Origin: a virus
Length of the DNA: 64,000 bases
Virus record (IMG/VR): IMGVR_UViG_3300045988_147517
Location: 1-64,000 of that record
Reading direction: 5' to 3' (one strand)
Position 1 is the first letter of the stretch. Every line of letters begins with the position of its first letter. Positions 27,490 through 61,350 of this stretch are shown piece after piece. The notes beneath the pieces were generated by a model, which saw nothing but the letters and a program-made list of their open reading frames with translations, made no database searches and was not told the origin of the DNA. Both the position numbers and the translations under genes were made by a program.

Positions 27490-28779
27490 CTAATCTTTGG
27501 CAATTCCACCTCCTTTTATAATGAGGTGGAATTGCCTTTTCCTTTCTTCTTGTAAATAGCTCATTCTAGCTTTTAATAATTTTAATTTTTTACAACTTAT
27601 ACCTGCATGAATTCTAGTTCCATCAAGTAATCTAATATCAAAATAACCTGTACTTCTTCTACCAAATATAAAGCACTCTTGGTCTTGAAATTTAACCTTG
27701 TCAAATAATCTAAAACCTTTAACAATATATGGCGCTTGGTTTAATTTCCTCCTTCCACCTTTTAGAAAATTAGCTTTATGGATTTTTCTATTATGGCATC
27801 TTACTTTTTTCTGATAGATGAAAGTTTCAAGAGGCTTTGCATTGAAATTTCCACTAATGCAATAAGCATCGTTATAGTGTTCTTTAGCCAAACCATGTTT
27901 GATGCGATTACTTTTTGTTATGTAGCCATAAGTTAATTCTACATCTTGATATACCTCTTTTAGTTTGTTATATAGCGGCCATCTCATAATTCCCATAAAG
28001 GTGGCATCATTATACTTTTTACCTCGTTTGATTTTAAAATCAATTTCTCCATTATGGTATTTCTTATGACAAGTACGGCATAAAGTAATTAGATTATTTG
28101 GAGCGTTTCCGCCTGTCTTTCGTGATTCTAGATGATGCACTTCCAACACTTTATCTTTAGACTTACCTAGACAATACCTACAAGTATGATTATCTCTAAA
28201 TAAGATATATTCTCTTGTATTCCAACCTTTCATTTCACCATTTTGGTAATCAACACCACTCATTGTTTTACCCTCAGCTTTAGCTTTAAGAAGTTGAGTA
28301 TCAAAAGACGCTACTTCTACTATTACTTTGCTAATAGGTAAAATTTTGTGAACATTTTCTATTACCTTTAAATGGCTATCAATCTTATGTCTTATTGATG
28401 GTGCTAACCACCCTTCTTTTTTAGTAGCTACACGATTATTAAATCTTGCTTTGCGATATCTTAAACGGTTTCGTCTAGCTCTTCTACTTTCTCTTCTTGT
28501 TGACAACAACTCAACAATGTCATTGCGAAGTTCAACTTCAGAACAATATAGTTCCTCTGTTTCTGTAGTTGCTGATAAACCTACGTGTTTAGAACCAGCA
28601 TCTACGCCTAAAGTAATTGGTTGGGTATAATTATTACCCTCGTAATTTAATTGAATTGTAAATGGACTACGCTTAACAATTTCAGCTTTACCATTTTTTA
28701 ATAAATGTCTCACTTTACCAAATCTATGCGTTGGCATAAGCGGTAATCCATTTTTATTTAAAACATATACTAACTGCAT
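27490..28779 (-). CDS. iscB: IscB RNA-guided nuclease (OMEGA system)
   Basis: 429 aa. PLMP motif (NGLPLMPT). RuvC-I LGVDAGSKHVG. Arg-rich bridge helix RRESRRARRNRLRYRKARF. RuvC-II VIVEVASFD. HNH EVHHLESRKTGGNAPNNLITLCRTCHKKYH. RuvC-III HYNDAY. Confidence 0.85.
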   Translation of the reverse strand: MQLVYVLNKNGLPLMPTHRFGKVRHLLKNGKAEIVKRSPFTIQLNYEGNNYTQPITLGVDAGSKHVGLSATTETEELYCSEVELRNDIVELLSTRRESRRARRNRLRYRKARFNNRVATKKEGWLAPSIRHKIDSHLKVIENVHKILPISKVIVEVASFDTQLLKAKAEGKTMSGVDYQNGEMKGWNTREYILFRDNHTCRYCLGKSKDKVLEVHHLESRKTGGNAPNNLITLCRTCHKKYHNGEIDFKIKRGKKYNDATFMGIMRWPLYNKLKEVYQDVELTYGYITKSNRIKHGLAKEHYNDAYCISGNFNAKPLETFIYQKKVRCHNRKIHKANFLKGGRRKLNQAPYIVKGFRLFDKVKFQDQECFIFGRRSTGYFDIRLLDGTRIHAGISCKKLKLLKARMSYLQEERKRQFHLIIKGGGIAKD

Positions 28780-29055
28780 TTTTTACCTAATTTAACCTAA
28801 TAAATAATTCAGCTTTAAAACTGTAATGTAGCCATCGACAATGTTATTTAAGGTTTAACGTATATATCACTATTTCTACCCCTTAAAATTGTTTAAACAT
28901 ATACCGTAGAGTAAGAGACTTGGCTAAACATCTCTTAGTACCTATTTCTTAAATAACGTAGGATATGTGTCTTATGACATTCTCCTTAGTCTAGTCAACA
29001 AGGGCTTTTTCAAGCCCCCACTTCAAGAAGGTCTATCTTGTAAGTGGTGGGTTGT
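28780..29055 (-). ncRNA. Putative IscB omegaRNA (scaffold; guide expected at its 5' end near 29055)
   Basis: A 276-nt non-coding gap lies immediately 5' of iscB on the coding strand, where IscB omegaRNAs are encoded. It contains the stem GGGCTT-gaaa-AAGCCC and other helices. Its 5' ~70 nt are conserved in the mini copy at 59677..59749. Confidence 0.6.
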
Positions 29056-32000
29056 TTACCGTCGCTCCAAAATAGAATACTCTAATAAATTATAATACGT
29101 AGTTCCATCTTTTTTATTTTTATCATATTTTTTACAGTAAATAACATCCCCTTCTTTAACTTCTCCGAAACTTTCAAGTGGAGATGGCGCTCTACGTCTC
29201 TGGACAAGGTCATACCTTCCATTGATTGGAATGGTAAACATAGATTCTTTTCCGCTACCAATAGAACGACACCATATTCTTAGCCCAAACATTTTTCCTG
29301 TGGATTTCGCTATTGCTTTCATCGTTTTAATTACATAAAGTTTTGGTCGGTCTTCCTCCTTGTCGGTTATTAGAGAAATGTATCCCAGAAATTCTTGTTG
29401 GTGCGCCATTTTTTCTGTGTAAGAAAAATCATTAACTCCCATTTCTTTTATTGCTTTTTCAGCGCCATGCAAAACATTAATGCAATCAATATTATCGTAG
29501 GATTTAGCAACACCACCTGATTTCGTAAAGCCGTTTGCATATTTTTCCATCAACGGGAATAAGTATGAATCTTCAGGGATTTTTTCCTTTTTTATTTGTT
29601 TGGCTTCTCCATATTTAAACATTTCAACAACGTATTTAATGTTCATTAATTCCTTTGCATTGCCAAAATCAGAAAAGAAATCAAGTTTAATTAATCCGTC
29701 TATCTGCCTTACATCTGCAATTCGTTCCTTTTTCATGTCAATTAATAGGTCAGCAAATGAAATATACCCTTTATGGCTCATTTTATATAGTTTATCTGCC
29801 AATTCGGCGTTCATATATTTTATAGAGCCAATACCCTTATAAATTGCCTTACTATCTTTGTCGAAAAAATATTCAGCCCTAGAATATCCAAACTTGATGC
29901 CCTTAATTTTAATACCAAATTTATTAGCGTATTGGATAATAGCGCTCGTTTTTTCTTCGTCACTACTAAAGGAATTTAGGGCGGCTGTTATAAATTCTAA
30001 AGGATAGTGATACCTTAAATATCCGATTTCATATGACGTGTAAGTATATGCGATGGCATGACTCTTATTAAAAGCATAACGAGAAGCATCCAAAATAATT
30101 TGTAAGAATGGTTCAATAATTTCCATGGCGCGATGTTCATCTAAGTCATATTTTGAAACAGCCGTTTCAATAAATCGTTTCTTTATTTCTGGGATAATAT
30201 CCTGTGTACCACCCTTATGTGCAATTTTACGCCGAACCACATCACTTTCAGATTCTGAATATCCGCAGAATTTTACTAAAAATTGCATAATCTGTTCTTG
30301 GTATACCAAATAGCCATTAGTGTCCGATAGGAGTTTGTCAATTTCGTCCCACCCATTGTTGGCTTTTTCACCAGCAGCCAATTTATTTCTATAGCTGGCC
30401 GCCGCTGGTCGAATGGCGGCGTTCGCAATAGCTACCCAATCCAACATTCGGAAATTATCATTCCATTCTTGAGCAGAAGCAACTGTTGTTGGAGAGGCAA
30501 AATTCTTTAAAAACGCGCCAGCACTGTTACTTTCAAATTGAAAAATTGCTGTGGTATCGTTTCGTATAGATGACCACACTTTTCCGTCTTCGGTATCTAT
30601 TGAATCAGCTTTTATAATTTCAATCCCTGCATTTTCACAACATGAATTAATGAGCTGTAAATTTTTAAGTCCAAGCAAATCTTCTTTTACATAATATTGA
30701 CTTTCTAATTCCTCCATATTTAACGATGTTAATCTATAAGGCGTATCAGTTGTTGTAAAACTTCCGATAACTTCATCAATACGTCTATCCGTTACGAGTT
30801 TCCCTGACGCATGTACGCCTACACTTGTGCATGTACCCCGTACAATGTCAACTAAATGGAAAACTTCTGGCTCAGAATCAATGATGTCTTGTGGGACATA
30901 AGGCTTTTTATCTTCGTCATATTCGACAGAGTTCGAAAGTTCTTGTGCATATTGAACAGTAAATCTTTTATACTGAACGTAAGGGTTGTCTTTGTCGAGA
31001 GTACCTTTCTTTCGTTCATTTTCATACATGTTGAAAAATCCACCACAGACATCTTTAATACTTCCTTTTAACTCAATAGTGTTTTCAGTCATAATAACTG
31101 CCGACTCAATCCCATCAATCTCTAAGTGTTTCCCTACAACAAATTCCTCTACCTTGTCCCTATCTTTCGACCCTATATCAATATCAATATCTGCCAAAGT
31201 GATTCTTGATGGAGACATGAAACGTGAAAAAATTAAGTTATGTTTAATAGGGTCAACTTCTGTTACGCCTAGTATGTAAAGAACTAAACTAGCAACACAA
31301 CTCCCTCTACCTAAACCAATATGGATATTATTTTTTTTACACCAATCAGCAATATACTCTTGAAGTAAAATATAGTTAGAAGCTTTACATATTTCAAATG
31401 TATCGAGTTCTTTATCAATTCTGCTTTTTAATTCATCAAAAGTATAGCGGCAATTTAAAACAGGGTGAGATTTAGCTCTATCATAAGTATGTTTTCTTAA
31501 TGTTTCAACAGGTTTATCGTATATTTTTGGATACTTAAACTCAGCATCTAAATCGAAAGGTTCAATCATTTCACTTAGAACCATTGTATTTTCTACAGCT
31601 TCTTCGACAATATTATTTGGCACGACCTCTTGTTCTTCGTAACAAATTATTAATTCGTCATAAGTTTTCCACGTCAAATCCCAACCATTTTCTTCGTCAA
31701 AATGAATCTTCTTCCGTTCTTGAAAAACCTTTCTGGCGCGCTCATGTTCTTTGTTCAAACAATGCGTATCAGTTCCCGTAATTAGCGGGATGTTATAAGA
31801 ATCGTGTAAATTTAAAAGTAATTTATTATACTCTCTTTGTTCTGGCGTATTATGATGTTGTAACTCTAAAAAACACCTATCTTTATTGGCGCTCAGGAAA
31901 TCTATGTAACTATCTACTAGTTTATTATATGCATCTAAATCGTCCCCGAATATACGTTGACGTTTTGTTTCATATCCAATAATCTCTTTCGTTTTCTTAT

Positions 32001-32475
32001 CTTTCACAGCATATCGGTTAATCTCTGCCGCCAGTGGACTGGCAATACACGCCGTTGAAACGATAATGTTCTCACTTGTATTAAACAATTCTTCAAATGT
32101 AATTCTTGGTGAATTGTAAAAATGGTTATCTCTTGTCCATGACAAACTAAATAAACGGTTTAATTCTTTAAAACCCTCATAATTACGCGCCATTAACACA
32201 CAATGGTAGTTATCTCTATGTTTGTCCTCAATCGAATAATCGTTCGTTAGATAGAATTCAGCCGCATGGATATATTTCATCCCGGCATTTTCAATTATTT
32301 TTTTTCTGGTATACCACTGTAAGATAGTGCCATGATTCGATATACCAAGTGTGACCATACCATCATCTTTTGCTTTTTCTACATAATGTTTTGCCTTTGT
32401 TACGCTATCAATTCCAGCTACAGGATTCGACAACGTATCGTGCGAATGAAAGACAGTGTATATTTTTTTACTCAT
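29056..32475 (-). CDS. dnaE: DNA polymerase III alpha subunit (DnaE-type)
   Basis: PHP domain start (IYTVFHSHDTLSN); ~1140 aa. The start was moved to the ATG at 32475, preceded by ggagg. Confidence 0.8.
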   Translation of the reverse strand: MSKKIYTVFHSHDTLSNPVAGIDSVTKAKHYVEKAKDDGMVTLGISNHGTILQWYTRKKIIENAGMKYIHAAEFYLTNDYSIEDKHRDNYHCVLMARNYEGFKELNRLFSLSWTRDNHFYNSPRITFEELFNTSENIIVSTACIASPLAAEINRYAVKDKKTKEIIGYETKRQRIFGDDLDAYNKLVDSYIDFLSANKDRCFLELQHHNTPEQREYNKLLLNLHDSYNIPLITGTDTHCLNKEHERARKVFQERKKIHFDEENGWDLTWKTYDELIICYEEQEVVPNNIVEEAVENTMVLSEMIEPFDLDAEFKYPKIYDKPVETLRKHTYDRAKSHPVLNCRYTFDELKSRIDKELDTFEICKASNYILLQEYIADWCKKNNIHIGLGRGSCVASLVLYILGVTEVDPIKHNLIFSRFMSPSRITLADIDIDIGSKDRDKVEEFVVGKHLEIDGIESAVIMTENTIELKGSIKDVCGGFFNMYENERKKGTLDKDNPYVQYKRFTVQYAQELSNSVEYDEDKKPYVPQDIIDSEPEVFHLVDIVRGTCTSVGVHASGKLVTDRRIDEVIGSFTTTDTPYRLTSLNMEELESQYYVKEDLLGLKNLQLINSCCENAGIEIIKADSIDTEDGKVWSSIRNDTTAIFQFESNSAGAFLKNFASPTTVASAQEWNDNFRMLDWVAIANAAIRPAAASYRNKLAAGEKANNGWDEIDKLLSDTNGYLVYQEQIMQFLVKFCGYSESESDVVRRKIAHKGGTQDIIPEIKKRFIETAVSKYDLDEHRAMEIIEPFLQIILDASRYAFNKSHAIAYTYTSYEIGYLRYHYPLEFITAALNSFSSDEEKTSAIIQYANKFGIKIKGIKFGYSRAEYFFDKDSKAIYKGIGSIKYMNAELADKLYKMSHKGYISFADLLIDMKKERIADVRQIDGLIKLDFFSDFGNAKELMNIKYVVEMFKYGEAKQIKKEKIPEDSYLFPLMEKYANGFTKSGGVAKSYDNIDCINVLHGAEKAIKEMGVNDFSYTEKMAHQQEFLGYISLITDKEEDRPKLYVIKTMKAIAKSTGKMFGLRIWCRSIGSGKESMFTIPINGRYDLVQRRRAPSPLESFGEVKEGDVIYCKKYDKNKKDGTTYYNLLEYSILERR

Positions 32476-32671
32476 TATTTCCTCCAACCAGCTTTTCCTC
32501 AACCTTTAAACAACGATTTAATGATTTACATTGTTCATAAATTTTGTCTGGACATGACCAGCAACAAATATCTTCCAAACATTTACAATCATTGTTTTGG
32601 CGCTCTATATTTTTACATTTTCCTTGTGGTGTTAAATATATACAATATTCAAGATTTCTTGATTTCTTCAT
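32468..32671 (-). CDS. Small Cys-rich protein (67 aa)
   Basis: Its stop overlaps the dnaE start (ATGAGTAA coupling). It contains 10 Cys residues. Confidence 0.45.
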   Translation of the reverse strand: MKKSRNLEYCIYLTPQGKCKNIERQNNDCKCLEDICCWSCPDKIYEQCKSLNRCLKVEEKLVGGNNE

Positions 32672-33807: not shown

Positions 33808-34139
33808 AGTATTCCAATCTCATCATCGACACGAACAGAATCCACAATTTTGTTCAATAAGTTAGGGTTAAAAGCATAGTCTATGACATCAAAATTACAC
33901 ACGTCAAAATCATTAATGCCAAGTTCAAACCAATGGTGCCACTTACTACTTTCGCTATTATAGTCCGTCAAATAAATACGAACAAGAAGGCAATCTTGCC
34001 TACCTTCTTCTGTCTCTCTATCAGAAATATAATTCCTAAAATTATACAACATTAAGAATTCTCGGAGTGTGATTGCAAAACCACACTCCTCAAGCACAAA
34101 TTCTTTAGTATATTCCCCTGATTCAAAGTTTAATTCCAT
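33789..34139 (-). CDS. Hypothetical protein
   Basis: TAATG overlap with the nrdJ stop. Confidence 0.5.
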   Translation of the reverse strand: MELNFESGEYTKEFVLEECGFAITLREFLMLYNFRNYISDRETEEGRQDCLLVRIYLTDYNSESSKWHHWFELGINDFDVCNFDVIDYAFNPNLLNKIVDSVRVDDEIGILCIHLV

Positions 34140-35712
34140 TAATCACACCCACTATAGCCGCAATCATCGTTAATGCAATGACCGCAACCACCTTCCGCAA
34201 CATAGGTTCTCTGTCCACATTTTGGACAAATTCCTAAATTGCTATTCTCCACTTCATTCTTTAGGTTTGTAACACCGCTAAGGAAATCTGTCAATTCTTT
34301 CATAGTGTTCTGTTCTTCACAAGTTTTACAGCGCGGCTCTGGGATATCAAAAACTCTAGAAACCGCTTCATTCACAATCTCTTCTTCACTATAATCATCA
34401 TCAATCAACTCTTCTTTGATTTGATTTGCCATCTCTTGCAATGCGATTCCCACTGCGGCAGGACAGCAATTCCCCGGCGAAACATCATGTTTAGTCGCCC
34501 TTCGCACCATATAACTAACGCAACCCGGGCAACTCTTTGCTTGGTCTACAATTCCCTCTACTGTTCCACCAAGGCGCATCGCATAAGAAATCATGCGAGA
34601 GCCAAATACCATCCAAGAATTACAGCCGCCCTCTGAGCCTTTGCTTAAAAATGTTTCGCAAAGTTCGCCATCTACTGGGTCAAAGAAAGCTGTTGTGTGT
34701 AAAGAGCCACACCCAGTAACAAGTTTGTGTTTTCTTCCCACAACATCGTCATAAACTTGAACCACATCACCTCGATTAAGTACCTGTAGAGGACGGGTTT
34801 CTTCTTTTGGCGGCTCTTCTTCTTGGTTGTTCACAAGGACACCAGCCCGGTCACAGCCATCTCTATAAACTGTAATGCCTTTAAGGCCTTGTTTCCACGC
34901 CTCATAGTATAATTCAAATACATCTTTAACTGTGGTATATTCAGGGAGATTTACTGTAGAACTAATTGATGCATCGATATGTTTTTGCCAAGCCGCCTGC
35001 ATAGCAATACGTTCTTTATACGGAATCATTGGCGCTGTTACAAACCAACTAGGTAAATCCGCTTCATTATCAATATTATTTTCCTGCATATATTCTTCTA
35101 CAATTGGAGTATATACTTTATACCAATACTCTTGACCATGAAGTGATTCTGTTTTTCTCATATAAGAATTGGCGAAAATGGGTTCCATCCCACCGGATAC
35201 ACCTAGCATTGTGCTAGTACTGCCCGTTGGGGCCACAGTCAACAGTTGCAAATTTCTCAACCCATATTTACGAATATCTTCATATAATTTGTCTGTTACA
35301 TGTGAATTTAAGAAAGGAGAATCTAGCACCGCGCCAGAAAACCTCGGGGCTGGGCCGAATTCTTTTGCTAACTCCATAGATGATTCGAGAGCGCATGAAA
35401 CGATGAATTCACCAATATTATCAGCTAATTTTAAAGACTCCTCACTTCCGTATCTTATTTTCAATTTAATCAGTAAGTCAGCCCATCCCATAACTCCTAG
35501 GCCGATTTGCCTGTAATTTCTTACACTTTCACGTTGATATTCTAGGGGGTGTAATTCCAACCCTTCATCTAAAACTTCATTCAAATAAATTACTGCATTT
35601 TTGACAGTAAATTTCAAAGAATCCCAATCAACTTTTCCATCTTTTTCAAATTGCGCCAAGTTAATTGAGCCAAGTAAACAACTACCTCCTTCTGGTAATG
35701 GTTCTTCTGCAC
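34139..35712 (-). CDS. nrdJ: Class II (B12-dependent) ribonucleotide reductase, exon 3
   Basis: After splicing it begins ..NP|CAEEPLPEGGSCLLGSINL. Also contains TVAPTGSTS and a C-terminal Cys-rich zinc module. The three exons total 2355 nt, which is 785 codons in frame. Confidence 0.7.
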
Positions 35713-35982
35713 CTTACCACACATAGTTTCCTATGCCATCTAATATAGATGTTGTAGTCTGGACTATATCATCCGTTATTTTATAAAAATAACAGGTGGG
35801 CGCTGGACAATAAATTGCCACTTAGTCTCTGAACCTTCCCCTGTTCGGGGCTTGGATGCTGATTGCCCAATCCATACATTTTTTAACATTCACGCCTAGA
35901 TTTATTTCATTCTTACGTTGTAGTATGTATGGCTCTAAGGGGTTTCCAGCAGTTCACCCACTTTTAAATCCGCATACACTTT
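35713..35982 (-). ncRNA. Group-I-like intron 2 in nrdJ (270 nt, ORF-less)
   Basis: It interrupts the catalytic NPCAE motif. The 5' exon ends in U and the intron ends in G. No ORF is present. Splicing restores the frame exactly. Confidence 0.55.
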
Positions 35983-36322
35983 ACGGATTAACCCCACCAT
36001 ATTGAAAATCAGGGTCTTCACTTAATAAATTATAGTCATTAATTCTATCCCAGAATAATAATCCGGGTTCAGCCTGCCGCCAATTCATCTCTGCTAAACG
36101 CATAAATACATCTTGAGCATTAATTACTTTGGTAATTTCTTCTCCTGTCTCTTGACGATAATATTTTAATGTATATTCTTCATCATTGATAACAGCATTC
36201 ATAAATTCATCTGTTACTTTAATTGAGATATTTGCCTTAGTAACTTTTCCAGCCTCCGATTTTAAATCAATAAAATCTTCAAGGTCTGGATGGCTACAAT
36301 CAAGGCTAATCATCAATGCCCC
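35983..36322 (-). CDS. nrdJ: Class II ribonucleotide reductase, exon 2
   Basis: It begins GALMISLDCSHPDLEDFI, continuing ...NGRR from exon 1, and ends ...FQYGGVNP plus the first base of the Cys codon. Confidence 0.7.
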
Positions 36323-37294
36323 CAATATGGACTATCTCTTACCACTAATCTAGTGGCTCGGGCGCTAATGTAGTCTTATTGTTATCCTCAACTACTAGTC
36401 TCTGCACGTCCTATATACCTTTTACATTATATAGTTTCGCTCAGGGTTCTTGGGTCTTCCCTGAATTCACCCAATTCAAGACGCAGGGCATTAGCTTTGT
36501 TATACTTTCTATATAATACAATAAATGAATCGTTAGGATATATATAATCTAAAAATTTTAAAACATCTTTTTTGCTAGAAAATCCTAATATAAAACAATC
36601 TTCTTTTCCTTTTGGCTTTATCTTAGATGATACTCCAACCTCATCTATTAAAACATTCTGAACACCTTCTAATAAACGGTATTGAGAAGTAAATGAAATT
36701 CTTTGCCATATCCTATTTCTGTCTTTCCTTCTTCCCCAAGTAATACACCCATCTCCATCAAAAAACCCAAGAATTAAATATCTTTTAAGGTCTTTTCTTA
36801 CAATTGGCAAATGACGGCTGTTCTTTTTTCCACCATATTTATTAATATCTGTAAGTATATTTTTATTATATATTGTATATCTTGCTCTTGGGAACCTCCT
36901 AGATTCCCTATCTAAGTATGTGGTTTCATGAACATTTCCACCAATAATTTGAGATATATAATATAGTATTTCTTTATCAGCTAATGAAACAGATAACTCA
37001 ACACACTTATCTCCAATGTATCCATCCGCTAATATAAATCCTAAGATATATGCTTTTTCTGGGGTATCAATCTTATTAAACATGTATTCATTTTTATACT
37101 CAACAGGTTTATTTTTTATTAAATGTTTTAAATTAAGTTTACCTATCCAATATAAAACAGTGGTGTAGCATAATCCAACTTTTTTTCCTATTTCCCTACT
37201 AGACATTCCATCTTCTAAATATCCTTTTAATTCATTATATTCCATATATTATCTCCTACTCTATATATTTTCGGTGATTAAATTAAGCTATTTT
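36323..37294 (-). mobile_element. Group-I-like intron 1 in nrdJ carrying a LAGLIDADG homing endonuclease
   Basis: A 972-nt insertion lies between ...AQNGRR and GALM.... The 5' exon ends in U (cgt) and the intron ends in G (ttg). It contains a free-standing endonuclease ORF. Confidence 0.6.
36427..37245 (-). CDS. LAGLIDADG-family homing endonuclease with N-terminal HTH
   Basis: Two LAGLIDADG-type motifs (ILGFILADGYI and ILGFFDGDGCI). It lies inside the nrdJ intron. Confidence 0.75.
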   Translation of the reverse strand: MEYNELKGYLEDGMSSREIGKKVGLCYTTVLYWIGKLNLKHLIKNKPVEYKNEYMFNKIDTPEKAYILGFILADGYIGDKCVELSVSLADKEILYYISQIIGGNVHETTYLDRESRRFPRARYTIYNKNILTDINKYGGKKNSRHLPIVRKDLKRYLILGFFDGDGCITWGRRKDRNRIWQRISFTSQYRLLEGVQNVLIDEVGVSSKIKPKGKEDCFILGFSSKKDVLKFLDYIYPNDSFIVLYRKYNKANALRLELGEFREDPRTLSETI

Positions 37295-46944: not shown

Positions 46945-47059
46945 CTTACCATTAAACTTTCTAATACTTCATTCTTTATAATGTCGTAAAGCATATCTTG
47001 TGCTACTTTTTCCATAATTGAATTATTCCCATTAATATCTAAATCCATCGCTTGTTTTA

Positions 47060-47170
47060 GATAATAAGACAAAGGCTCCCCTTATTTAGGCACATTTTCA
47101 CGCTTCTCGCTCAAGCACTACAATAAGTACAGTATCAACGAGCTATCCCCGTCCTAACAGCGGTTCTTGC
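47060..47170 (-). ncRNA. Orphan TnpB-type omegaRNA-like scaffold, copy A (with candidate 3' guide)
   Basis: Minus-strand sequence is aaccgctgttaggacggggatagctcgttgatac...ttgagcgagaagcg-tgaaaatgtgCCTAAat.... It is homologous to the scaffold 3' of tnpB. No ORF is present. Confidence 0.5.
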
Positions 47171-49121: not shown

Positions 49122-49676
49122 TTACATGATGTGGCCGTATCTTTGCAAAAGTCTTAAACCGTCAACCATTTCGCTTAAAGACTCGTCAAAATTATCAGAA
49201 GTTTCATCCTTACTTTCTTCTTCTTGTTCTTCCTCTTCGTCATATCCTATCATATCAACTATAAGCGCAAATGAAGTGAATATTTCTTCCTCAGAAACTT
49301 CTTCATTGTTTTCAATCTTTTCTTCAATTTTATTAAGATATTCTAAAGCATGTAAAAGTTTAAATGCTTCTGATATTTCGGAATTTTCATCCTCCAATTC
49401 AATGGCTGTCCTTTTTGTAGAGCCACAAGCTTTAGGTTCTGCATCGATGCACCATTCAGAGCTTACTTTTAATAATTCGCCGTCTTCCGCCTCTACAATA
49501 TAAGACTTTTCATTTTCACCCAATAATTCATCATGCCAAAATTCTCCTACTATCGGCATCATATCCATTTTATCATATGGCATTTCGATGCCCATTTCAT
49601 TGGTTAAAGCTTTCCCGGCTTCATAGACATTCTTACCTACAACCTCAATCATTTTTTCTTTACTAAATACTAGCAT
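49122..49676 (-). CDS. Hypothetical acidic protein
   Basis: SD aaggag. Confidence 0.5.
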   Translation of the reverse strand: MLVFSKEKMIEVVGKNVYEAGKALTNEMGIEMPYDKMDMMPIVGEFWHDELLGENEKSYIVEAEDGELLKVSSEWCIDAEPKACGSTKRTAIELEDENSEISEAFKLLHALEYLNKIEEKIENNEEVSEEEIFTSFALIVDMIGYDEEEEQEEESKDETSDNFDESLSEMVDGLRLLQRYGHIM

Positions 49677-49719
49677 TTTGTTCTCCTTTTTTATATAAAT
49701 TTTAAAAATTAAATATAAT

Positions 49720-49851
49720 TCATGTTAACTTTAAACAATGGTAAAAGTCAATCAAATTTAAATACATTCTAATTTAAACACAGATTCAACGCTTCTCGCT
49801 CAATAACCTTACGGTTAAGTATCAACGAGCTAACCCCGGTTTAACCTCGGT
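49720..49851 (-). ncRNA. Stand-alone omegaRNA-like gene, copy B (scaffold + CRISPR-repeat-like segment + candidate guide)
   Basis: Minus-strand sequence is aaccgaggttaaaccggggttagctcgttgatacTTAACCgtaaGGTTAttgagcgagaagcg-ttgaat-ctgtGTTTAAattagaatgtatttaaat-ttgattgac.... A consensus promoter ends 6 nt upstream. Confidence 0.6.
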
Positions 49852-49857
49852 TCTTTG

Positions 49858-49886
49858 ATTATAACATATAATTTTTGTTATGTCAA
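49858..49886 (-). promoter_or_regulatory. Consensus sigma70-type promoter driving omegaRNA copy B
   Basis: TTGACA-taacaaaaattatatgt-TATAAT on the minus strand. The predicted start is ~49851, at the first conserved scaffold nucleotides. Confidence 0.7.
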
Positions 49887-50264: not shown

Positions 50265-50492
50265 ATTCAAATACATCTCGTGTTAAACACAAACTTTGGC
50301 ACTTGATGTCTATTTTTTCTGGAAATTAAAATTTAAATGCATCTCATGTTAAACACAAACCCCGGCATCTATTACCGGAGACAAACAAATAGTAAGATTT
50401 AAATACATCTCATGTTAAACACAAACCCTAATCGTCTATATCTGCGCCTTTTAGAATATCTAATTTAAATACATCTCATGTTAAACACAAAC
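50265..50492 (-). CRISPR. CRISPR-like mini-array: 4 x 30-bp repeats, 3 x 36-bp spacers, adjacent to tnpB
   Basis: Repeats lie at 50463-50492, 50397-50426, 50331-50360 (1 mismatch) and 50265-50294 (2 mismatches). Coding-strand consensus is GTTTGTGTTTAACATGAGATGTATTTAAAT. The period is exactly 66 bp and the spacers are unrelated to each other. Confidence 0.75.
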
Positions 50493-50602
50493 TATAGTAT
50501 TTATCTCATTCTCATTACGCTAACATTTGATGCTTCTCACTCGATAGTCTAATGACTAAGCATAAATGAGCTATCCCCGGTTTAACCTCGGTTGGTGGTA
50601 AG
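50493..50602 (-). ncRNA. TnpB omegaRNA scaffold, copy C (cis copy) plus degenerate repeat-like linker
   Basis: It starts right after the tnpB stop: cttaccaccaaccgaggttaaaccggggatagctcatttatgcTTAGTCattaGACTAtcgagtgagaagca, then tcaaa-tgttagcgtaatgagaatgagataaatac-tatag leading into repeat 1. Confidence 0.65.
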
Positions 50603-51751
50603 TTAATTTACCAGCCGCTTTCCTTCTTTTAGAATATTTTTAGCGGCATTTATATCCCTATCCTCTTTGTAGCCACAAACCGGGCATACAAAGGTTTTTT
50701 CGGATAAAATATTCTCTTCTATTACATGTTCACACTTATGGCACGTCTTTGAGCTTGGGAAAAATGTATTTACTTGTACATATTTATGGCCATATTCTTC
50801 TGCTTTATACGCTAACATTTGGCAGAAATTAAAGTACCCTATATCGGTAATAGCAGAATTAAAATTTTTCTTTGTTCTATTTAAAAACCCTTCTTTCTCT
50901 TTATTCTGTTTCATCATTTCTTGCAATTTAAGTTTCTCAACCGCAATAATTTTATTATCTCTCGCAATCTTCCTACTCAAATTATGTGCGAAATATGCTC
51001 TTTGTCTAGCAATTTTCTGATGAACTTTCGCTACTTTAATACGTTGTTTTTCGTAATTTTTACTACCACGTTGACAATGACTTAATTTGCGTTGCTCTCT
51101 GGCTAAACGTTCTTTGCTTTTCTTATAGTAGTTAGGATAATCTGGAATACTTCCTTTATTATCCACAAAGTAATCTCGTGATGAAAAATCAAGCCCGATG
51201 GATTGGGATTTCCCTTTCTTCTGTTTCATTTTAAATTCAATGCAGAAGGCAATATAGTATTCCCCTGATGGTGTCCTAGAAAGTGTTGCATCACATATTT
51301 TTGCATCATCTGGAATTGGCCTATCAACAATCATTTTGACGGTTGTTGACAATTTTGGAATTTTAACTCTATTACCTTCAATACGCAACCCATTACCGCC
51401 AACTGTATTTCTCGTTTTAAAGCTATCCCTACATCTACCACGCTTCTTAAATTTAGGAAATCCGGGCTTTTCCCCATTTTTTAATCTTCTAAAAAAGTTT
51501 TTATACGCCTGTTCTAAATCCCGCTGAACAAAATTTAAGGCATGTGCATCCACTTCTTTTAACCAAGTATTATCTGCTTTATATGAAGCGTAGCTCGTCT
51601 TTAATGACTTCCCCGTCTCTTCATAATGCTTTATTTTGTCAGCAAGCATAGCATTCCAAATCCATCTGCAAGCGCCAAATGTTTTATTTAAATATTCTCT
51701 CTGTTCTTTATTTGGGTAGATACGATATTTATAACCTCTAACTACTAACAT
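50603..51751 (-). CDS. tnpB: TnpB-family RNA-guided nuclease (382 aa), no tnpA
   Basis: N-terminus YKYRIYPNKEQREYLNKTFGACRWIWN. RuvC-I SIGLDFS, RuvC-II IIAVEKL. Zinc finger CHKCEH...CPVCGY. RuvC-III EDRDINAAKNI. Confidence 0.85.
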   Translation of the reverse strand: MLVVRGYKYRIYPNKEQREYLNKTFGACRWIWNAMLADKIKHYEETGKSLKTSYASYKADNTWLKEVDAHALNFVQRDLEQAYKNFFRRLKNGEKPGFPKFKKRGRCRDSFKTRNTVGGNGLRIEGNRVKIPKLSTTVKMIVDRPIPDDAKICDATLSRTPSGEYYIAFCIEFKMKQKKGKSQSIGLDFSSRDYFVDNKGSIPDYPNYYKKSKERLAREQRKLSHCQRGSKNYEKQRIKVAKVHQKIARQRAYFAHNLSRKIARDNKIIAVEKLKLQEMMKQNKEKEGFLNRTKKNFNSAITDIGYFNFCQMLAYKAEEYGHKYVQVNTFFPSSKTCHKCEHVIEENILSEKTFVCPVCGYKEDRDINAAKNILKEGKRLVN

Positions 51752-51779
51752 TTTCTTACCTCATCAACTTTATGTCTAT

Positions 51780-51808
51780 ATTATATCATGTTGGCGCTTA
51801 CTTGTCAA
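51780..51808 (-). promoter_or_regulatory. Consensus sigma70-type promoter driving tnpB (AAGCGCCAA motif in the spacer)
   Basis: TTGACA-agtaagcgccaacatga-TATAAT on the minus strand, ~28 nt before the tnpB ATG (SD gaggt). Confidence 0.7.
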
Positions 51809-60406: not shown

Positions 60407-60625
60407 TTAATCCCTCATAAGCCTTTTAATATCTCTTACATTCAAACTCAATACTATATTCACATTATCAGGCGGATTCATATTATTTACAAACCGCTTC
60501 AAACACCCAGTCGAACAAAAATAATGGCCGTGCGACCGCACCCCGTTATTGGAGATTTCTTGAATCGTCAACTGAATCATATTACAGGTACAACCCGCTT
60601 CTCCACTACAAAACTCACACTTCAT
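60407..60625 (-). CDS. Small Cys-rich protein
   Basis: The ATG at 60625, 8 nt after aaggag, is preferred over the GTG at 60634. Translation begins MKCEFCSGEAGCTC.... Confidence 0.5.
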   Translation of the reverse strand: MKCEFCSGEAGCTCNMIQLTIQEISNNGVRSHGHYFCSTGCLKRFVNNMNPPDNVNIVLSLNVRDIKRLMRD

Positions 60626-60637
60626 AATATTCACTCC

Positions 60638-60730
60638 TTAGTTAATTAAAATACCGCCAACATATTCAATATATTCGTATGCCGCCTTTGGCGATTCCAC
60701 AACATCATTTTTGCCAATCGTTTCCCAATT
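60638..60730 (-). pseudogene. Displaced, diverged duplicate of the last 30 codons of gene 60826..61248
   Basis: It translates in frame to NWETIGKNDVVESPKAAYEYIEYVGGILIN*. The functional end reads SWDAIAKDDVIESPEKAYEYIETVGGILIN*. It has no start codon and lies immediately 3' of omegaRNA copy D. Confidence 0.65.
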
Positions 60731-60815
60731 TAGGTGTACTAATGTACTTCTCACTCGATAGCATAGCTAAGCATAAATGAGCTAACCCCGTCCTAACAGC
60801 GGTTATTGTTGGTGC
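60705..60815 (-). ncRNA. Orphan TnpB-type omegaRNA-like scaffold, copy D (candidate guide = displaced gene fragment)
   Basis: Minus-strand sequence is caccaacaataaccgctgttaggacggggttagctcatttatgcTTAGCtatGCTAtcgagtgagaagta-cattagtacaCCTAAat-tgggaaacgattgg.... Confidence 0.5.
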
Positions 60816-60825
60816 TATATAATTA

Positions 60826-61248
60826 TTAATTGATTAATATGCCGCCAACAGTTTCAATATACTCATAGGCTTTTTCAGGCGATTCTATAACATCATCTTT
60901 AGCAATCGCATCCCAAGAATATTTACCCGCATATCGGGTAAAAGCCTTTTGAAAATCAACACCTTTTTTATTTTTATACAATACAATTTCATCCCACATT
61001 CTTTGACTACTCACCACAATATTATCATGCGCCATGTTTACTATTGTATTCGGCCCCATAACTCTATACCCTTTAACGTCATGCGGGATTGTCCCAATGC
61101 CATGGCAATAATGACAAACACTTTGTAAAAGGGGGTATCCCGCTTTTAAACCACGAGCATACCCCTTACCACCACATTTCGGGCAACATACTTCATCTAC
61201 GCGAAACGTTCCTTCTTTAATATAATATACTTCGTCTCCTAGTTCCAA
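60826..61248 (-). CDS. Protein with DnaJ-type CxxCxGxG zinc-finger repeats (140 aa)
   Basis: Motifs CPKCGGKG and CHYCHGIG. TTG start after aaggaggg. Confidence 0.5.
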   Translation of the reverse strand: MELGDEVYYIKEGTFRVDEVCCPKCGGKGYARGLKAGYPLLQSVCHYCHGIGTIPHDVKGYRVMGPNTIVNMAHDNIVVSSQRMWDEIVLYKNKKGVDFQKAFTRYAGKYSWDAIAKDDVIESPEKAYEYIETVGGILIN

Positions 61249-61275: not shown

Positions 61276-61350
61276 TGGTGCGGGGACTGGGAATCGAACC
61301 CAGTTTTCAGGCGTATAAGACCCGCGCACTAACCGATGTACTATCCCCGT
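61276..61350 (-). tRNA. tRNA-Ile (anticodon UAU), CCA encoded
   Basis: Hand-folded cloverleaf: acceptor ACGGGGA/TCCCCGC (A1-C72 mismatch), D arm GTAC-ATCGGTTA-GTGC, anticodon arm CGGGT-CTTATAC-GCCTG, T arm CTGGG-TTCGATT-CCCAG, then ACCA. Confidence 0.75.

What the first reader, a model, noticed from the sequence alone, without database searches (positions are those of the whole stretch)
49720..49886. Stand-alone, promoter-driven 'unsplit' omegaRNA gene whose 3' part is homologous to the CRISPR repeat
A perfect TTGACA-N17-TATAAT promoter ends 6 nt before the first conserved scaffold nucleotide of copy B, and there is no ORF. After the scaffold, and 6 nt after GAGAAGCG, comes ctgtgtttaaattagaatgtatttaaat. 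This aligns over its full length with the array repeat gtttgtgtttaacatgagatgtatttaaat, with an identical 5' gtgtttaa and an identical 3' atgtatttaaat. A unique sequence then follows (ttgattgacttttaccattg...), in the position a spacer would occupy.

The same genome therefore holds a contiguous scaffold+repeat+guide RNA (B) and a scaffold physically separated from repeat-spacer units (C plus the array). This pair is what a model of omegaRNA splitting into tracrRNA and crRNA would predict. It also fixes the likely guide start: immediately 3' of ...UAUUUAAAU.
Basis: partly seen in the sequence, partly recalled or inferred. Interest (0 to 1): 0.8.

Follow-up and report, generated by a model that had tools for sequence, protein, structure and literature searches.

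The report
TnpB guide scaffold heading CRISPR mini-array
A strongly promoted, non-coding copy of a phage TnpB nuclease's guide-RNA scaffold sits at the head of a shrunken CRISPR array of the bacterial type I-B family, giving a natural test case for how a transposon nuclease might start taking guides from a borrowed CRISPR array.

Summary
A perfect TTGACA-N17-TATAAT promoter (49886..49858, minus strand) abuts an ORF-free copy of the TnpB guide-RNA scaffold (49852..49772). The next 27 nt match the array repeat 22/27, and nothing else in the window exceeds 19/27.

The interpretation needs revising:
- **Not a lone guide gene.** Copy B heads a collapsed mini-array. A degenerate terminal repeat (49736..49708) follows after 19 nt. 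Sister phages carry 2-3 repeats with 34-37-nt spacers at the same locus.
- **Repeats not born from omegaRNA splitting.** Their last 22 nt are identical to Clostridium type I-B repeats, and the 21 nt before the first repeat resemble host array leaders.
- **Several scaffold copies.** The window holds four (A-D). In the non-array copies the guide starts right after an 8-nt strand ending TAAAT, 19-20 nt after GAGAAG. Those guides match sister-phage alleles 19/20, 20/20 and 22/25.
- **Shared architecture.** The omegaRNA tail (4-bp hairpin plus an 8-nt pseudoknot strand) mirrors the last 19 nt of the I-B repeat.

Copy B is most likely a secondary scaffold-repeat fusion that may give TnpB a guide. 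No target was found for either candidate guide.

The parts
49858..49886 (-). Perfect sigma-70-type promoter of copy B (TTGACA-17-TATAAT, TG-extended -10)
   Evidence: The same promoter sits at the same place in sister phages L011, L012, L027, L029 and L155.
49772..49852 (-). Scaffold copy B. The core has stems 1-3 and ends in GAGAAG (49797..49792). A 20-nt tail follows (weak stem 4 plus the 8-nt strand GUUUAAAU).
   Evidence: Covariance-model match of 97.1 bits. The consensus structure has 9 compensatory pairs. The pseudoknot between loop UUAAAC and tail GUUUAA is 6 bp.
49756..49771 (-). Extra 16 nt, TAGAATGTATTTAAAT. Read as the first 7 nt of the array leader (GAGAATG-like) joined to the last 9 nt of a repeat. 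With the tail it forms the 'repeat-like' unit X.
   Evidence: Alignments, and the 22/27 match. L029 has TAAAATGTATTTAAAT at the same place.
49752..49771 (-). Guide option 1, TAGAATGTATTTAAATTTGA: the 20 nt after the tail, placed by homology with copies A, D, D2 and E
   Evidence: No target was found.
49737..49755 (-). Guide option 2, the spacer position: TTGATTGACTTTTACCATT.
   Evidence: It is unique in the window. IMG/VR gave only chance-level 18-mer hits.
49708..49736 (-). Degenerate terminal CRISPR repeat, GTTTAAAGTTAACATGAATTATATTTAAT
   Evidence: It is conserved, together with the downstream sequence, in L012, L027, L029 and L155.
49122..49676 (-). 184-aa gene directly downstream, with no terminator in between, so read-through from the B promoter is likely
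50603..51751 (-). TnpB, 382 aa, with its own perfect promoter at 51808..51780
   Evidence: Pfam HTH_OrfB_IS605, OrfB_IS605 and Cas12f1-like_TNB. Best solved-structure match is ISDra2 TnpB, E 6.5e-58, with the D/E/D positions aligned.
50514..50593 (-). Scaffold copy C, directly after the TnpB stop codon. Its tail ends UAGCGUAAU and has lost the pseudoknot strand.
   Evidence: (94.1 bits).
50493..50513 (-). Leader-like 21 nt, GAGAATGAGATAAATACTATA, before repeat 1
   Evidence: It resembles host I-B leader ends (…AGAATGGCTATTTTACAGTG): 9.4-10.0 of 21 identical at the true offset against 6.1-6.9 at other offsets.
50265..50492 (-). CRISPR array: 4 repeats of 30 nt (the last degenerate) and 3 spacers of 36 nt
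   Evidence: Rfam CRISPR-DR3 scores 30.8 bits, below its threshold of 41.
47084..47165 (-). Scaffold copy A. Its guide AAGGGGAGCCTTTGTCTTAT lies at 47083..47064.
   Evidence: 85.8 bits. The guide matches 19/20 the intact RlaP-like gene of sister phage L027, next to gaaTTCA.
60728..60804 (-). Scaffold copy D. Its guide TGGGAAACGATTGGCAAAAA lies at 60727..60708 and is followed by a duplicate of the 3' end of upstream gene X.
   Evidence: 82.1 bits. A 25-nt stretch from the guide start (60727..60703) matches the gene-X allele of sister phage L026 22/25.
60567..60586 (-). Site in the 75-aa gene matched 20/20 by the guide of a scaffold remnant (D2) in sister phage L026
   Evidence: L026's own allele differs at 2 positions.

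Best explanation
Copy B is a strongly transcribed, non-coding copy of the guide-RNA (omegaRNA) scaffold of the phage's TnpB nuclease (50603..51751). It sits at the head of a collapsed CRISPR mini-array of the host type I-B family.

**Shown**
- The window holds four scaffold copies sharing a conserved core of three stems plus a loop-tail pseudoknot.
- In this TnpB lineage the last ~19 nt of the omegaRNA are a 4-bp hairpin plus an 8-nt strand ending UAAAU. The last 19 nt of the I-B repeat have the same architecture (ACAU-GAG-AUGU + AUUUAAAU).
- In the non-array copies the guide begins right after that 8-nt strand, and it matches sister-phage alleles.

**Inferred**
- In B a deletion of about 35 nt joined the scaffold tail and the first 7 nt of the array leader to the last 9 nt of a repeat. 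This gave one RNA: scaffold, repeat-like unit, 19 nt, terminal repeat.
- TnpB made in trans binds the core and keeps 16-20 nt as guide. The guide is either TAGAATGTATTTAAATTTGA (49771..49752) or TTGATTGACTTTTACCATT (49755..49737).
- The rest of the transcript reads through into the 184-aa gene.

B is therefore a secondary re-fusion of a scaffold with a captured foreign repeat, not an ancestral unsplit omegaRNA.
For: **B is a TnpB scaffold**
- Covariance-model hits occur at exactly four places in the window: 97.1, 94.1, 85.8 and 82.1 bits.
- RNAalifold predicts 15 pairs, 9 with compensatory changes.
- With the pseudoknot included, 94% of cells are paired against at most 49.5% in slid controls. 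Pseudoknot pairs switch from A-U to G-C between the B/C-type and A/D-type copies.

**TnpB is probably active**
- It has the full domain set, and the D/E/D positions align with ISDra2-like TnpB.

**Guide boundary and function of the family**
- Copy A's guide matches the empty-site allele in L027 19/20, and homology starts exactly after ...CCTAAAT.
- D2's guide matches the window 20/20.
- A 25-nt stretch from copy D's guide start matches L026's allele 22/25.

**Array context**
- The same promoter and scaffold are followed by 2-3 repeats and the same terminal repeat in L012, L027, L155 and L029.
- L029 has B's fused form followed by a 34-nt spacer.
- L008-E is a scaffold whose tail is 17/19 identical to its lineage's repeat end. 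A 32-nt spacer and a degenerate repeat follow.

**Shared architecture of tail and repeat**
- See the table.
- The tail hairpin of L021B and of L011C matches its own array's repeats 10/11 (sequences).

**Repeats are I-B family**
-.

**Precedent for re-fusion**
- In Sigma-TnpB a half repeat fused with the tracrRNA to re-create an omegaRNA (PMC10691335).
Against: - No target was found for either candidate guide. The window, 30 related loci, GenBank phages and IMG/VR were searched.
- Guide option 1 is nearly conserved between the window and L029, which is unusual for a guide.
- The fold of B alone is not distinctive (z -0.91).
- Sister phage L021/L026 keeps intact A, B and D scaffolds but has no TnpB at the C locus, and one search found none in that contig. 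The scaffolds can therefore persist without a linked TnpB.
- The commonest variant has the non-fused form at B.
- No transcript data exist.
- The direction of change (deletion versus insertion) is inferred from parsimony only.
Confidence: 0.55

Rival explanations
1. Hitch-hiker or relic. The arrays, including B's, are ordinary phage-borne mini-arrays that use the host's type I-B Cas proteins. The TnpB scaffolds at their heads are remnants of selfish IS or homing insertions into the array leader. They are kept because they sit behind a strong promoter, and they give TnpB no useful guide.
For: - Repeats and leader end are of host I-B type.
- Spacers are 34-38 nt, as in I-B arrays.
- The TnpB-less sister phage drives its C array directly from the promoter.
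- Three array-head scaffolds have lost the pseudoknot strand.
- Viral mini-arrays that exploit host Cas are well known (PMC11656645).
Against: - The scaffold cores at array heads are fully conserved with compensatory changes.
- The scaffold-array link holds at two loci and down to 72% TnpB identity.
- B, L029B and L008-E keep a pairing-competent tail directly joined to a spacer.
- No scaffold was found at 100 host array loci.
- X's Cas6-type hairpin is broken (AAUU-AGA-AUGU), so its spacer could not be processed as a normal I-B crRNA.
Confidence: 0.25
2. First reader's model. B is the ancestral, unsplit omegaRNA, and C plus the array arose from it by splitting into tracrRNA and crRNA, with the repeats derived from the omegaRNA 3' end.
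For: - B is contiguous and C is separated.
- The tail and the repeat share architecture.
- RNA splitting is the published TranC model.
Against: - The last 22 nt of the repeat are identical to repeats in more than 120 Clostridium array stretches, and to the C. autoethanogenum type I-B repeat over its last 17 nt.
- A host-like leader end precedes repeat 1.
- More distant phage TnpBs have a different, canonical 3' end (GGAAC loop with GTTCA tail) and no arrays.
- B carries a terminal repeat and a leader fragment, so it descends from an array.
Confidence: 0.07
3. RNA anti-CRISPR decoy. The highly expressed repeat-like units of B (X plus the terminal repeat, with a too-short spacer) mimic crRNA and tie up host I-B Cas6 or Cascade, like viral single-repeat units.
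For: - There are two degenerate repeats with a 19-nt spacer behind a perfect promoter.
- Single-repeat units acting as RNA anti-CRISPRs are described in PMC11656645.
Against: - X's hairpin is disrupted.
- Sister phages carry normal spacers at this locus.
- This model does not explain the conserved scaffold.
Confidence: 0.06
4. B is merely the promoter and structured 5' UTR of the 184-aa gene, and no discrete small RNA is made.
For: - There is no terminator between B and the gene, and an RBS follows directly.
- The MFE is not distinctive.
Against: The same 81-nt structure occurs at three other places in the window with unrelated downstream genes, and it shows covariation.
Confidence: 0.05

Closest known systems
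IS200/IS605 TnpB with omegaRNA/reRNA (ISDra2 type)
   Same: - A 382-aa TnpB with HTH, OrfB and TNB domains whose best solved-structure match is ISDra2 TnpB.
- The scaffold follows tnpB and has a loop-tail pseudoknot. ISDra2's omegaRNA also has a pseudoknot (PMC13639567).
- The guide is the 3' flank and matches the uninterrupted allele.
   Different: - The scaffold is only about 81 nt.
- Its 3' module looks like a type I-B CRISPR repeat end rather than the canonical ...GTTCA(C).
- Three of the four copies are detached from tnpB.
- Two copies head CRISPR arrays.
- No TnpA or IS-end hairpins were identified.
TranC (transposon-CRISPR intermediates; Jin et al. 2025, Cell 188:6283), including phage-borne CauTranC9
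   Same: - A TnpB-sized nuclease with a CRISPR array directly downstream, here in a phage.
- CauTranC9 is likewise phage-borne and TnpB-like.
   Different: [quoted passage not shown] Here the repeats are 30-nt type I-B family repeats with a host-like leader.
- Significant anti-repeat pairing was found only in L009C, where shared hairpin arms explain it.
- LaTranC matches this protein only over its C-terminal part (E 7e-18).
- Clade membership could not be tested.
Viral CRISPR mini-arrays and single repeat units that exploit host Cas proteins
   Same: - Short arrays of 1-4 spacers with host-type repeats.
- No cas genes were seen in the proteins scanned.
- The phenomenon is described in PMC11656645.
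   Different: - A TnpB guide-RNA scaffold is inserted between the promoter and the leader end at both arrays.
- No spacer target was found among related viruses.
Sigma-TnpB re-fused omegaRNA (Altae-Tran et al. 2023, PMC10691335)
   Same: A half repeat fused to the tracrRNA re-creates an omegaRNA whose 3' end equals the repeat end. This is the same kind of event inferred for B and L008-E.
   Different: That lineage descends from Cas12f, is nuclease-dead and is regulatory. Here the nuclease looks intact and the repeat is of another CRISPR type.
Free-standing homing endonucleases of phages (intronless homing, e.g. T4 SegF)
   Same: Guides of copies A, D and D2 match the sister phage's allele of a neighbouring gene, while the carrier's own allele is diverged. 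This is the logic reviewed in PMC13565253.
   Different: Recognition is by RNA guide rather than by protein. This applies to copies A, D and D2. It has not been shown for B.

Membership tests
TnpB omegaRNA (OMEGA, IS200/IS605) | A cognate TnpB nuclease with an intact RuvC D/E/D triad in the same genome | tested here: met
   Pfam domains. The alignment to ISDra2-like TnpB conserves the three acidic positions.
TnpB omegaRNA (OMEGA, IS200/IS605) | A conserved structured scaffold supported by covariation, including a pseudoknot next to the guide | tested here: met
TnpB omegaRNA (OMEGA, IS200/IS605) | The scaffold overlaps or abuts the 3' end of tnpB | tested here: not met
   B lies 750 nt from tnpB behind its own promoter. 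Only copy C abuts tnpB.
TnpB omegaRNA (OMEGA, IS200/IS605) | The 3' flank acts as guide and matches an uninterrupted target next to a TAM | tested here: inconclusive
   Met for A (19/20), D2 (20/20) and D (22/25), with 5' flanks TTCA, TACC and TTCT. For B no target was found for either candidate guide.
TnpB omegaRNA (OMEGA, IS200/IS605) | IS ends with TnpA-recognised hairpins, and a TnpA | not tested
   Only 11 nt separate TTGAT from the tnpB start codon. No systematic search for TnpA or end hairpins was made.
TranC / type V CRISPR | A CRISPR array directly downstream of a TnpB-like effector | tested here: met
   The arrangement is conserved in L011, L009, L155 and L158.
TranC / type V CRISPR | Repeats derived from the reRNA, and a tracrRNA anti-repeat that pairs with the repeat | tested here: not met
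   The repeats are type I-B family. Duplex z-scores are -0.9 to -1.6. L009C reaches -3.06, which shared hairpin arms explain.
TranC / type V CRISPR | crRNA-guided DNA cleavage by the effector | not testable with these tools
   This needs biochemistry or an interference assay.
Viral mini-array exploiting host Cas | Repeats (nearly) identical to those of a host CRISPR-Cas system | tested here: inconclusive
   The last 22 nt are identical to many Clostridium arrays, but the 5' 8-10 nt differ. The host is not identified; one relative is labelled Holdemanella porci.
Viral mini-array exploiting host Cas | Spacers target related viruses | tested here: not met
   No protospacer was found in the window, the related loci or GenBank phages; three spacers scanned in IMG/VR also gave none. 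The databases hold few relatives.

The most novel reading that the evidence does not exclude
A phage TnpB lineage has rebuilt the 3' end of its guide RNA as the last ~19 nt of a host type I-B CRISPR repeat: the hairpin plus the 8-nt handle. The scaffold loop has co-evolved to pair with that handle. The lineage has also embedded its scaffold in the leaders of I-B-type arrays. TnpB could then draw guides from a captured foreign array. Window B, L029-B and L008-E would be natural single-guide fusions. The tail-less scaffolds at C would act in a tracr-like way.

This would be a living example of the 'insertion next to a pre-existing array' route to type V CRISPR, as opposed to RNA splitting. In the same phages, dispersed guide genes (A, D, D2) would mediate RNA-guided homing or exclusion between sister phages.
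Probability: 0.3. Interest if true: 0.9.

Novelty: new variant of a known kind. Interest (0 to 1): 0.72.

Why it matters
Two routes have been proposed for how TnpB became Cas12. One is growth of an array from the omegaRNA itself (RNA splitting, as in TranC). The other is insertion of the transposon next to an existing array, which Altae-Tran et al. 2023 say 'cannot be ruled out'.

This phage clade offers sequence-level intermediates for the second route:
- a TnpB scaffold fused to, or sitting just upstream of, repeats of another CRISPR type;
- a guide-proximal RNA module that has the repeat's architecture;
- fused and unfused forms at the same locus in sister phages.

It also gives directly testable guide-target pairs (A, D, D2) for RNA-guided competition between phages. 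Finally, it provides an unusually short scaffold of about 81 nt for a 382-aa nuclease.

Tried and rejected
- **ISDra2-type insertion at TTGAT.** The TnpB-less sister phage lacks window 51762..50524, exactly after TTGAT. I first read this as an IS boundary and empty site. I rejected it because the retained TTAGTATAAT is shared with tails of non-array copies (D TTAGTACA, D2 TTAGCA), so it is a scaffold remnant. The flanks of the A, D and D2 targets are TTCA, TTCT and TACC, not TTGAT.
- **Anti-repeat pairing between scaffold and repeat.** It is not significant apart from L009C, and the homologous hairpin arms explain it.
- **B guide 1 aimed at CRISPR repeats or host leaders.** There are three seed mismatches to the repeat and many to the leader, so this was rejected.
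- **Rfam.** No omegaRNA family matches the scaffold. The only hit is a sub-threshold CRISPR-DR3 match to the repeats.
- **JGI metagenome scan with the scaffold pattern.** It returned only GC-rich chance hits.
- **Protospacer searches.** All 11 first-round spacers searched in GenBank phages, a further three scanned in IMG/VR, and all spacers and guides against the fetched loci gave nothing.
- **The 18-mer of guide 2 in IMG/VR.** Five hits fell in two independent contexts, which is chance level, and none had a TAM-like flank.
- **Host spacers against the phage.** 2015 spacers gave only short, chance-level hits.
- **cas genes next to host arrays.** None lay within the two 8-kb host loci checked. 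The I-B assignment therefore rests on PMC4022347.
Full report
**Context.** The window is part of a large lytic-type phage genome, a 119-kb ENA metagenome contig. Tail genes lie on the plus strand. DNA polymerase, ribonucleotide reductase, NAMPT and DnaB lie on the minus strand. No close relative exists in GenBank phages. Everything discussed here is on the minus strand.

**The observation.**
- A perfect TTGACA-N17-TATAAT promoter with a TG-extended -10 lies at 49886..49858. It is one of 11 perfect sites in the window, all on the minus strand, against 0.06 expected.
- Five nucleotides later, at 49852, a conserved sequence begins that also follows the stop codon of a 382-aa TnpB (50603..51751). 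That protein has the Pfam domains HTH_OrfB_IS605, OrfB_IS605 and Cas12f1-like_TNB. Its best solved-structure match is ISDra2 TnpB at E 6.5e-58, with the catalytic acidic positions aligned.
- No ORF of 20 aa or more lies inside the element.
- The stretch tgtgtttaaattagaatgtatttaaat (49782..49756) matches the 30-nt repeat of the array downstream of TnpB 22/27 without gaps. In the whole window only the four array repeats score higher, and nothing else exceeds 19/27.
After only 19 nt (49755..49737) comes a degenerate repeat, gtttaaagttaacatgaattatatttaat (49736..49708).

**How many scaffolds, and what they look like.** I aligned ten distinct copies from the window and sister phages.
- RNAalifold gives three stems with 15 pairs, 9 of them showing compensatory changes.
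- A pseudoknot joins the loop of stem 1 to the strand just before the guide. With it included, 94% of cells pair, against at most 49.5% when partners are slid.
- Two pseudoknot pairs switch together. Copies B and C have loop UUAAAC with tail GUUUAA. Copies A and D have loop UUAGG with tail CCUAA.
- A covariance model finds exactly four copies in the window:

| Copy | Coordinates (minus strand) | Bits |
|---|---|---|
| A | 47165..47084 | 85.8 |
| B | 49852..49772 | 97.1 |
| C | 50593..50513 | 94.1 |
| D | 60804..60728 | 82.1 |

- The model finds none in 0.71 Mb around 100 bacterial arrays of the same repeat family.
- More distant phage TnpBs (29-42% identity) share the 5' AACCG...CGGGGATAGC start. 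They have longer scaffolds with the canonical GGAAC loop and GTTCA(C) end, and no arrays.

**Where the guide starts.** Three independent comparisons with sister phages fix the boundary in the non-array copies.
- *Copy A.* Sister phage L027 has an intact 294-aa RlaP-like gene where the window has A. Homology resumes exactly after ...GCCTAAAT. The next 20 nt match 19/20, and the 5' flank is gaaTTCA.
- *Copy D.* The window and L026 are identical through ...CACCTAAAT and diverge immediately afterwards. The window's next 25 nt match L026's allele of the upstream gene 22/25 (flank ataTTCT). The window's own allele is diverged, and a duplicate 3' gene end follows the guide.
- *Remnant D2.* L026 carries a scaffold remnant whose 20 nt after ...ATTTAAAT match the window's 75-aa gene 20/20 (60586..60567, flank ttgTACC). 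L026's own allele has two mismatches.

The omegaRNA therefore ends 19-20 nt after GAGAAG. This tail consists of a 4-bp hairpin that covaries (GUAC/GUAC, GUGC/GCAU, GCGU/AUGU, ACAU/AUGU) plus an 8-nt strand ending UAAAU. These guides target sister-phage alleles. That is the expected signature of TnpB elements and resembles intronless homing (PMC13565253).

**What the repeats are.**
- The repeat gives a sub-threshold match to Rfam CRISPR-DR3 (30.8 bits against a threshold of 41).
- Its last 22 nt, TTAACATGAGATGTATTTAAAT, occur in more than 120 stretches of bacterial genomes, nearly all Clostridium arrays with a 65-66-nt period. The commonest repeat there is GTTGAACCTTAACATGAGATGTATTTAAAT.
- C. 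autoethanogenum has type I-B cas genes flanked by arrays with the 30-bp repeat GTTGAACCTCAACATGAGATGTATTTAAAT and 35-38-bp spacers (PMC4022347).
- The 21 nt between scaffold and repeat 1 in the phage (GAGAATGAGATAAATACTATA, or GAGAATGGGATAAATACTGTT in L009) resemble the conserved end of host leaders (...AGAATGGCTATTTTACAGTG) at the same offset. Identity is 9.4-10.0 of 21, against 6.1-6.9 at other offsets, with a maximum of 16 of 21.
- The arrays are therefore of the host I-B family and were not generated from the omegaRNA.

**Copy B in sister phages.**
- The commonest variant carries a TnpB 96% identical to the window's and is seen in 102 blocks of the collection (L155-L157, also L011 and L027). 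The TnpB-less phage (L012, L021) has the same B locus. In both, the order is: the same promoter, the scaffold, TTAGCACAAC, a leader-like AAAAATGGGATAAATACTATA, repeat, 35-nt spacer, repeat, 37-nt spacer, the same terminal repeat, and the same 184-aa gene.
- L029, whose 184-aa protein is 83% identical, has the window's fused form...CATCGAATCTGTGTTTAAATTAAAATGTATTTAAAT. A 34-nt spacer, a repeat, a 35-nt spacer and the terminal repeat follow.
- The fused form can be derived from the other by one deletion of about 35 nt, between ...AATG in the leader and ...ATG^TATTTAAAT in repeat 1. This is an inference.
- L008, in the 72% lineage, holds a fifth type of locus, E. Its scaffold tail ACATGATAGTGTATTTAAAC is 17/19 identical to that lineage's repeat end, including the lineage-specific final C. 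A 32-nt spacer and a degenerate repeat follow.

**The link between tail and repeat.**
- The last 19 nt of the I-B repeat are ACAU-GAG-AUGU plus AUUUAAAU. That is the same hairpin-plus-8-nt architecture as the omegaRNA tail.
- D2 and E carry the repeat's own final 8 nt of their lineage: AUUUAAAU in D2 and AUUUAAAC in E.
- The tail hairpins of L021B and L011C match their own arrays' repeats 10/11.
- The 8 nt correspond to the 5' handle that Cas6 leaves on type I crRNAs. This point rests on established knowledge and was not tested here.
- The scaffold loop UUAAA(C) is complementary to that handle. 'Repeat end plus spacer' therefore has the same form as 'tail plus guide'.
- Three array-head scaffolds (window C, L021B, L011C) keep a conserved core but have lost the pseudoknot strand. 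This fits either decay or a tracr-like role. I could not discriminate between the two. Predicted scaffold-repeat duplexes are not significant apart from L009C, and shared hairpin arms explain them.

**How B most likely works.**
- *Shown.* B is a bona fide scaffold copy behind a consensus promoter. It heads a collapsed I-B-type mini-array, and no terminator lies before the next gene.
- *Inferred.* The RNA is bound by TnpB made in trans and trimmed to a guide. By homology with A, D, D2 and E the guide would be TAGAATGTATTTAAATTTGA (49771..49752).
- *Evidence on the choice.* Favouring the second start, that sequence differs completely between the window and L029, as spacers do, whereas option 1 is nearly conserved. 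Favouring the first start, its spacing from GAGAAG is the one seen in all other copies.
- *Targets.* Neither sequence has a detectable target.

**Comparison with what is known.**
- B works like an omegaRNA, but it is detached from tnpB and fused to a foreign repeat.
- The locus resembles TranC systems in layout, including the phage-borne CauTranC9. It fails the defining feature that repeats derive from the reRNA.
- It resembles viral mini-arrays that exploit host Cas, but with a TnpB scaffold inserted in the leader.
- The closest precedent for the fusion is Sigma-TnpB, where a half repeat and the tracrRNA re-fused into an omegaRNA (PMC10691335).
- The same paper leaves open that type V arrays could arise by insertion of tnpB near a pre-existing array. 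This clade may be a natural example.

**Caveats.**
- There are no transcript or activity data.
- The host is unknown. One relative is labelled Holdemanella porci, while the repeat family was found mostly in Clostridium.
- A sister phage retains scaffolds without a detectable TnpB.
- The TnpB frameshift in L027 lies in an A-run and may be an assembly error.

Noticed in passing
window 27490..29059 (-): A second RNA-guided system. An IscB-like protein (429 aa, Pfam RRXRR plus HNH) lies at 27490..28779, with its HEARO/omegaRNA (Rfam RF02033, 137 bits) at 28823..29059. The RNA overlaps the last 4 nt of the DNA polymerase gene (29056..32502).
   Followed up: partly
window 35739..37245 (-): A group I intron (RF00028, 67.6 bits) at 35739..36020 sits between the ribonucleotide reductase gene (34139..35659) and a LAGLIDADG homing endonuclease ORF (36427..37245). 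The phage carries many homing-type elements.
   Followed up: no
window 60638..60830 (-): Copy D sits between gene X (140 aa) and a diverged duplicate of that gene's last ~30 codons (WETIGKNDVVESPKAAYEYIEYVGGILIN against WDAIAKDDVIESPEKAYEYIETVGGILIN). D's guide is the start of the duplicate and resembles the sister phage's allele. This looks like a homing cassette with a recoded replacement gene end.
   Followed up: partly
L026 3522..3585; window 60567..60586: Sister phage L026 has a truncated second scaffold (D2) right after D. Its 20-nt guide matches the window's 75-aa gene perfectly, yet it is not contiguous with that gene in L026. How it got there is unexplained.
   Followed up: partly
window 46945..47165 (-); L027 8491..9375: Copy A interrupts a RlaP-like nucleotidyltransferase gene that is intact in L027. 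The window also lacks 705 bp of that gene, so only its last ~35 codons remain.
   Followed up: yes
window 50524..51762 (-) versus L021 3846/3847: Sister phage IMG/VR 3300045988_118521 lacks this 1239-bp segment (RBS, TnpB and most of scaffold C), so its array is driven directly by the promoter. It still keeps scaffolds A, B and D.
   Followed up: partly
whole window, minus strand: There are 11 perfect TTGACA-N17-TATAAT promoters, all on the minus strand, several sharing ...GCGCCAA... or TATGTTATAAT. They appear to mark the phage's early or middle transcription units.
   Followed up: no
L008 6965..7120: A fifth kind of scaffold locus (E) occurs in the 72%-identity phage lineage, upstream of the DUF7666 gene. 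It is a scaffold, a repeat-identical tail, a 32-nt spacer and a degenerate repeat. The window has no scaffold at the corresponding place.
   Followed up: partly
L009 versus L158 (arrays after TnpB): Phages whose TnpBs fall in one 90%-identity cluster carry completely different spacer sets. This implies spacer turnover or array swapping, although no adaptation genes were seen.
   Followed up: no
window 61276..61350 (-): A tRNA-Ile (anticodon TAT) lies just downstream of a perfect promoter and upstream of gene X and copy D.
   Followed up: no
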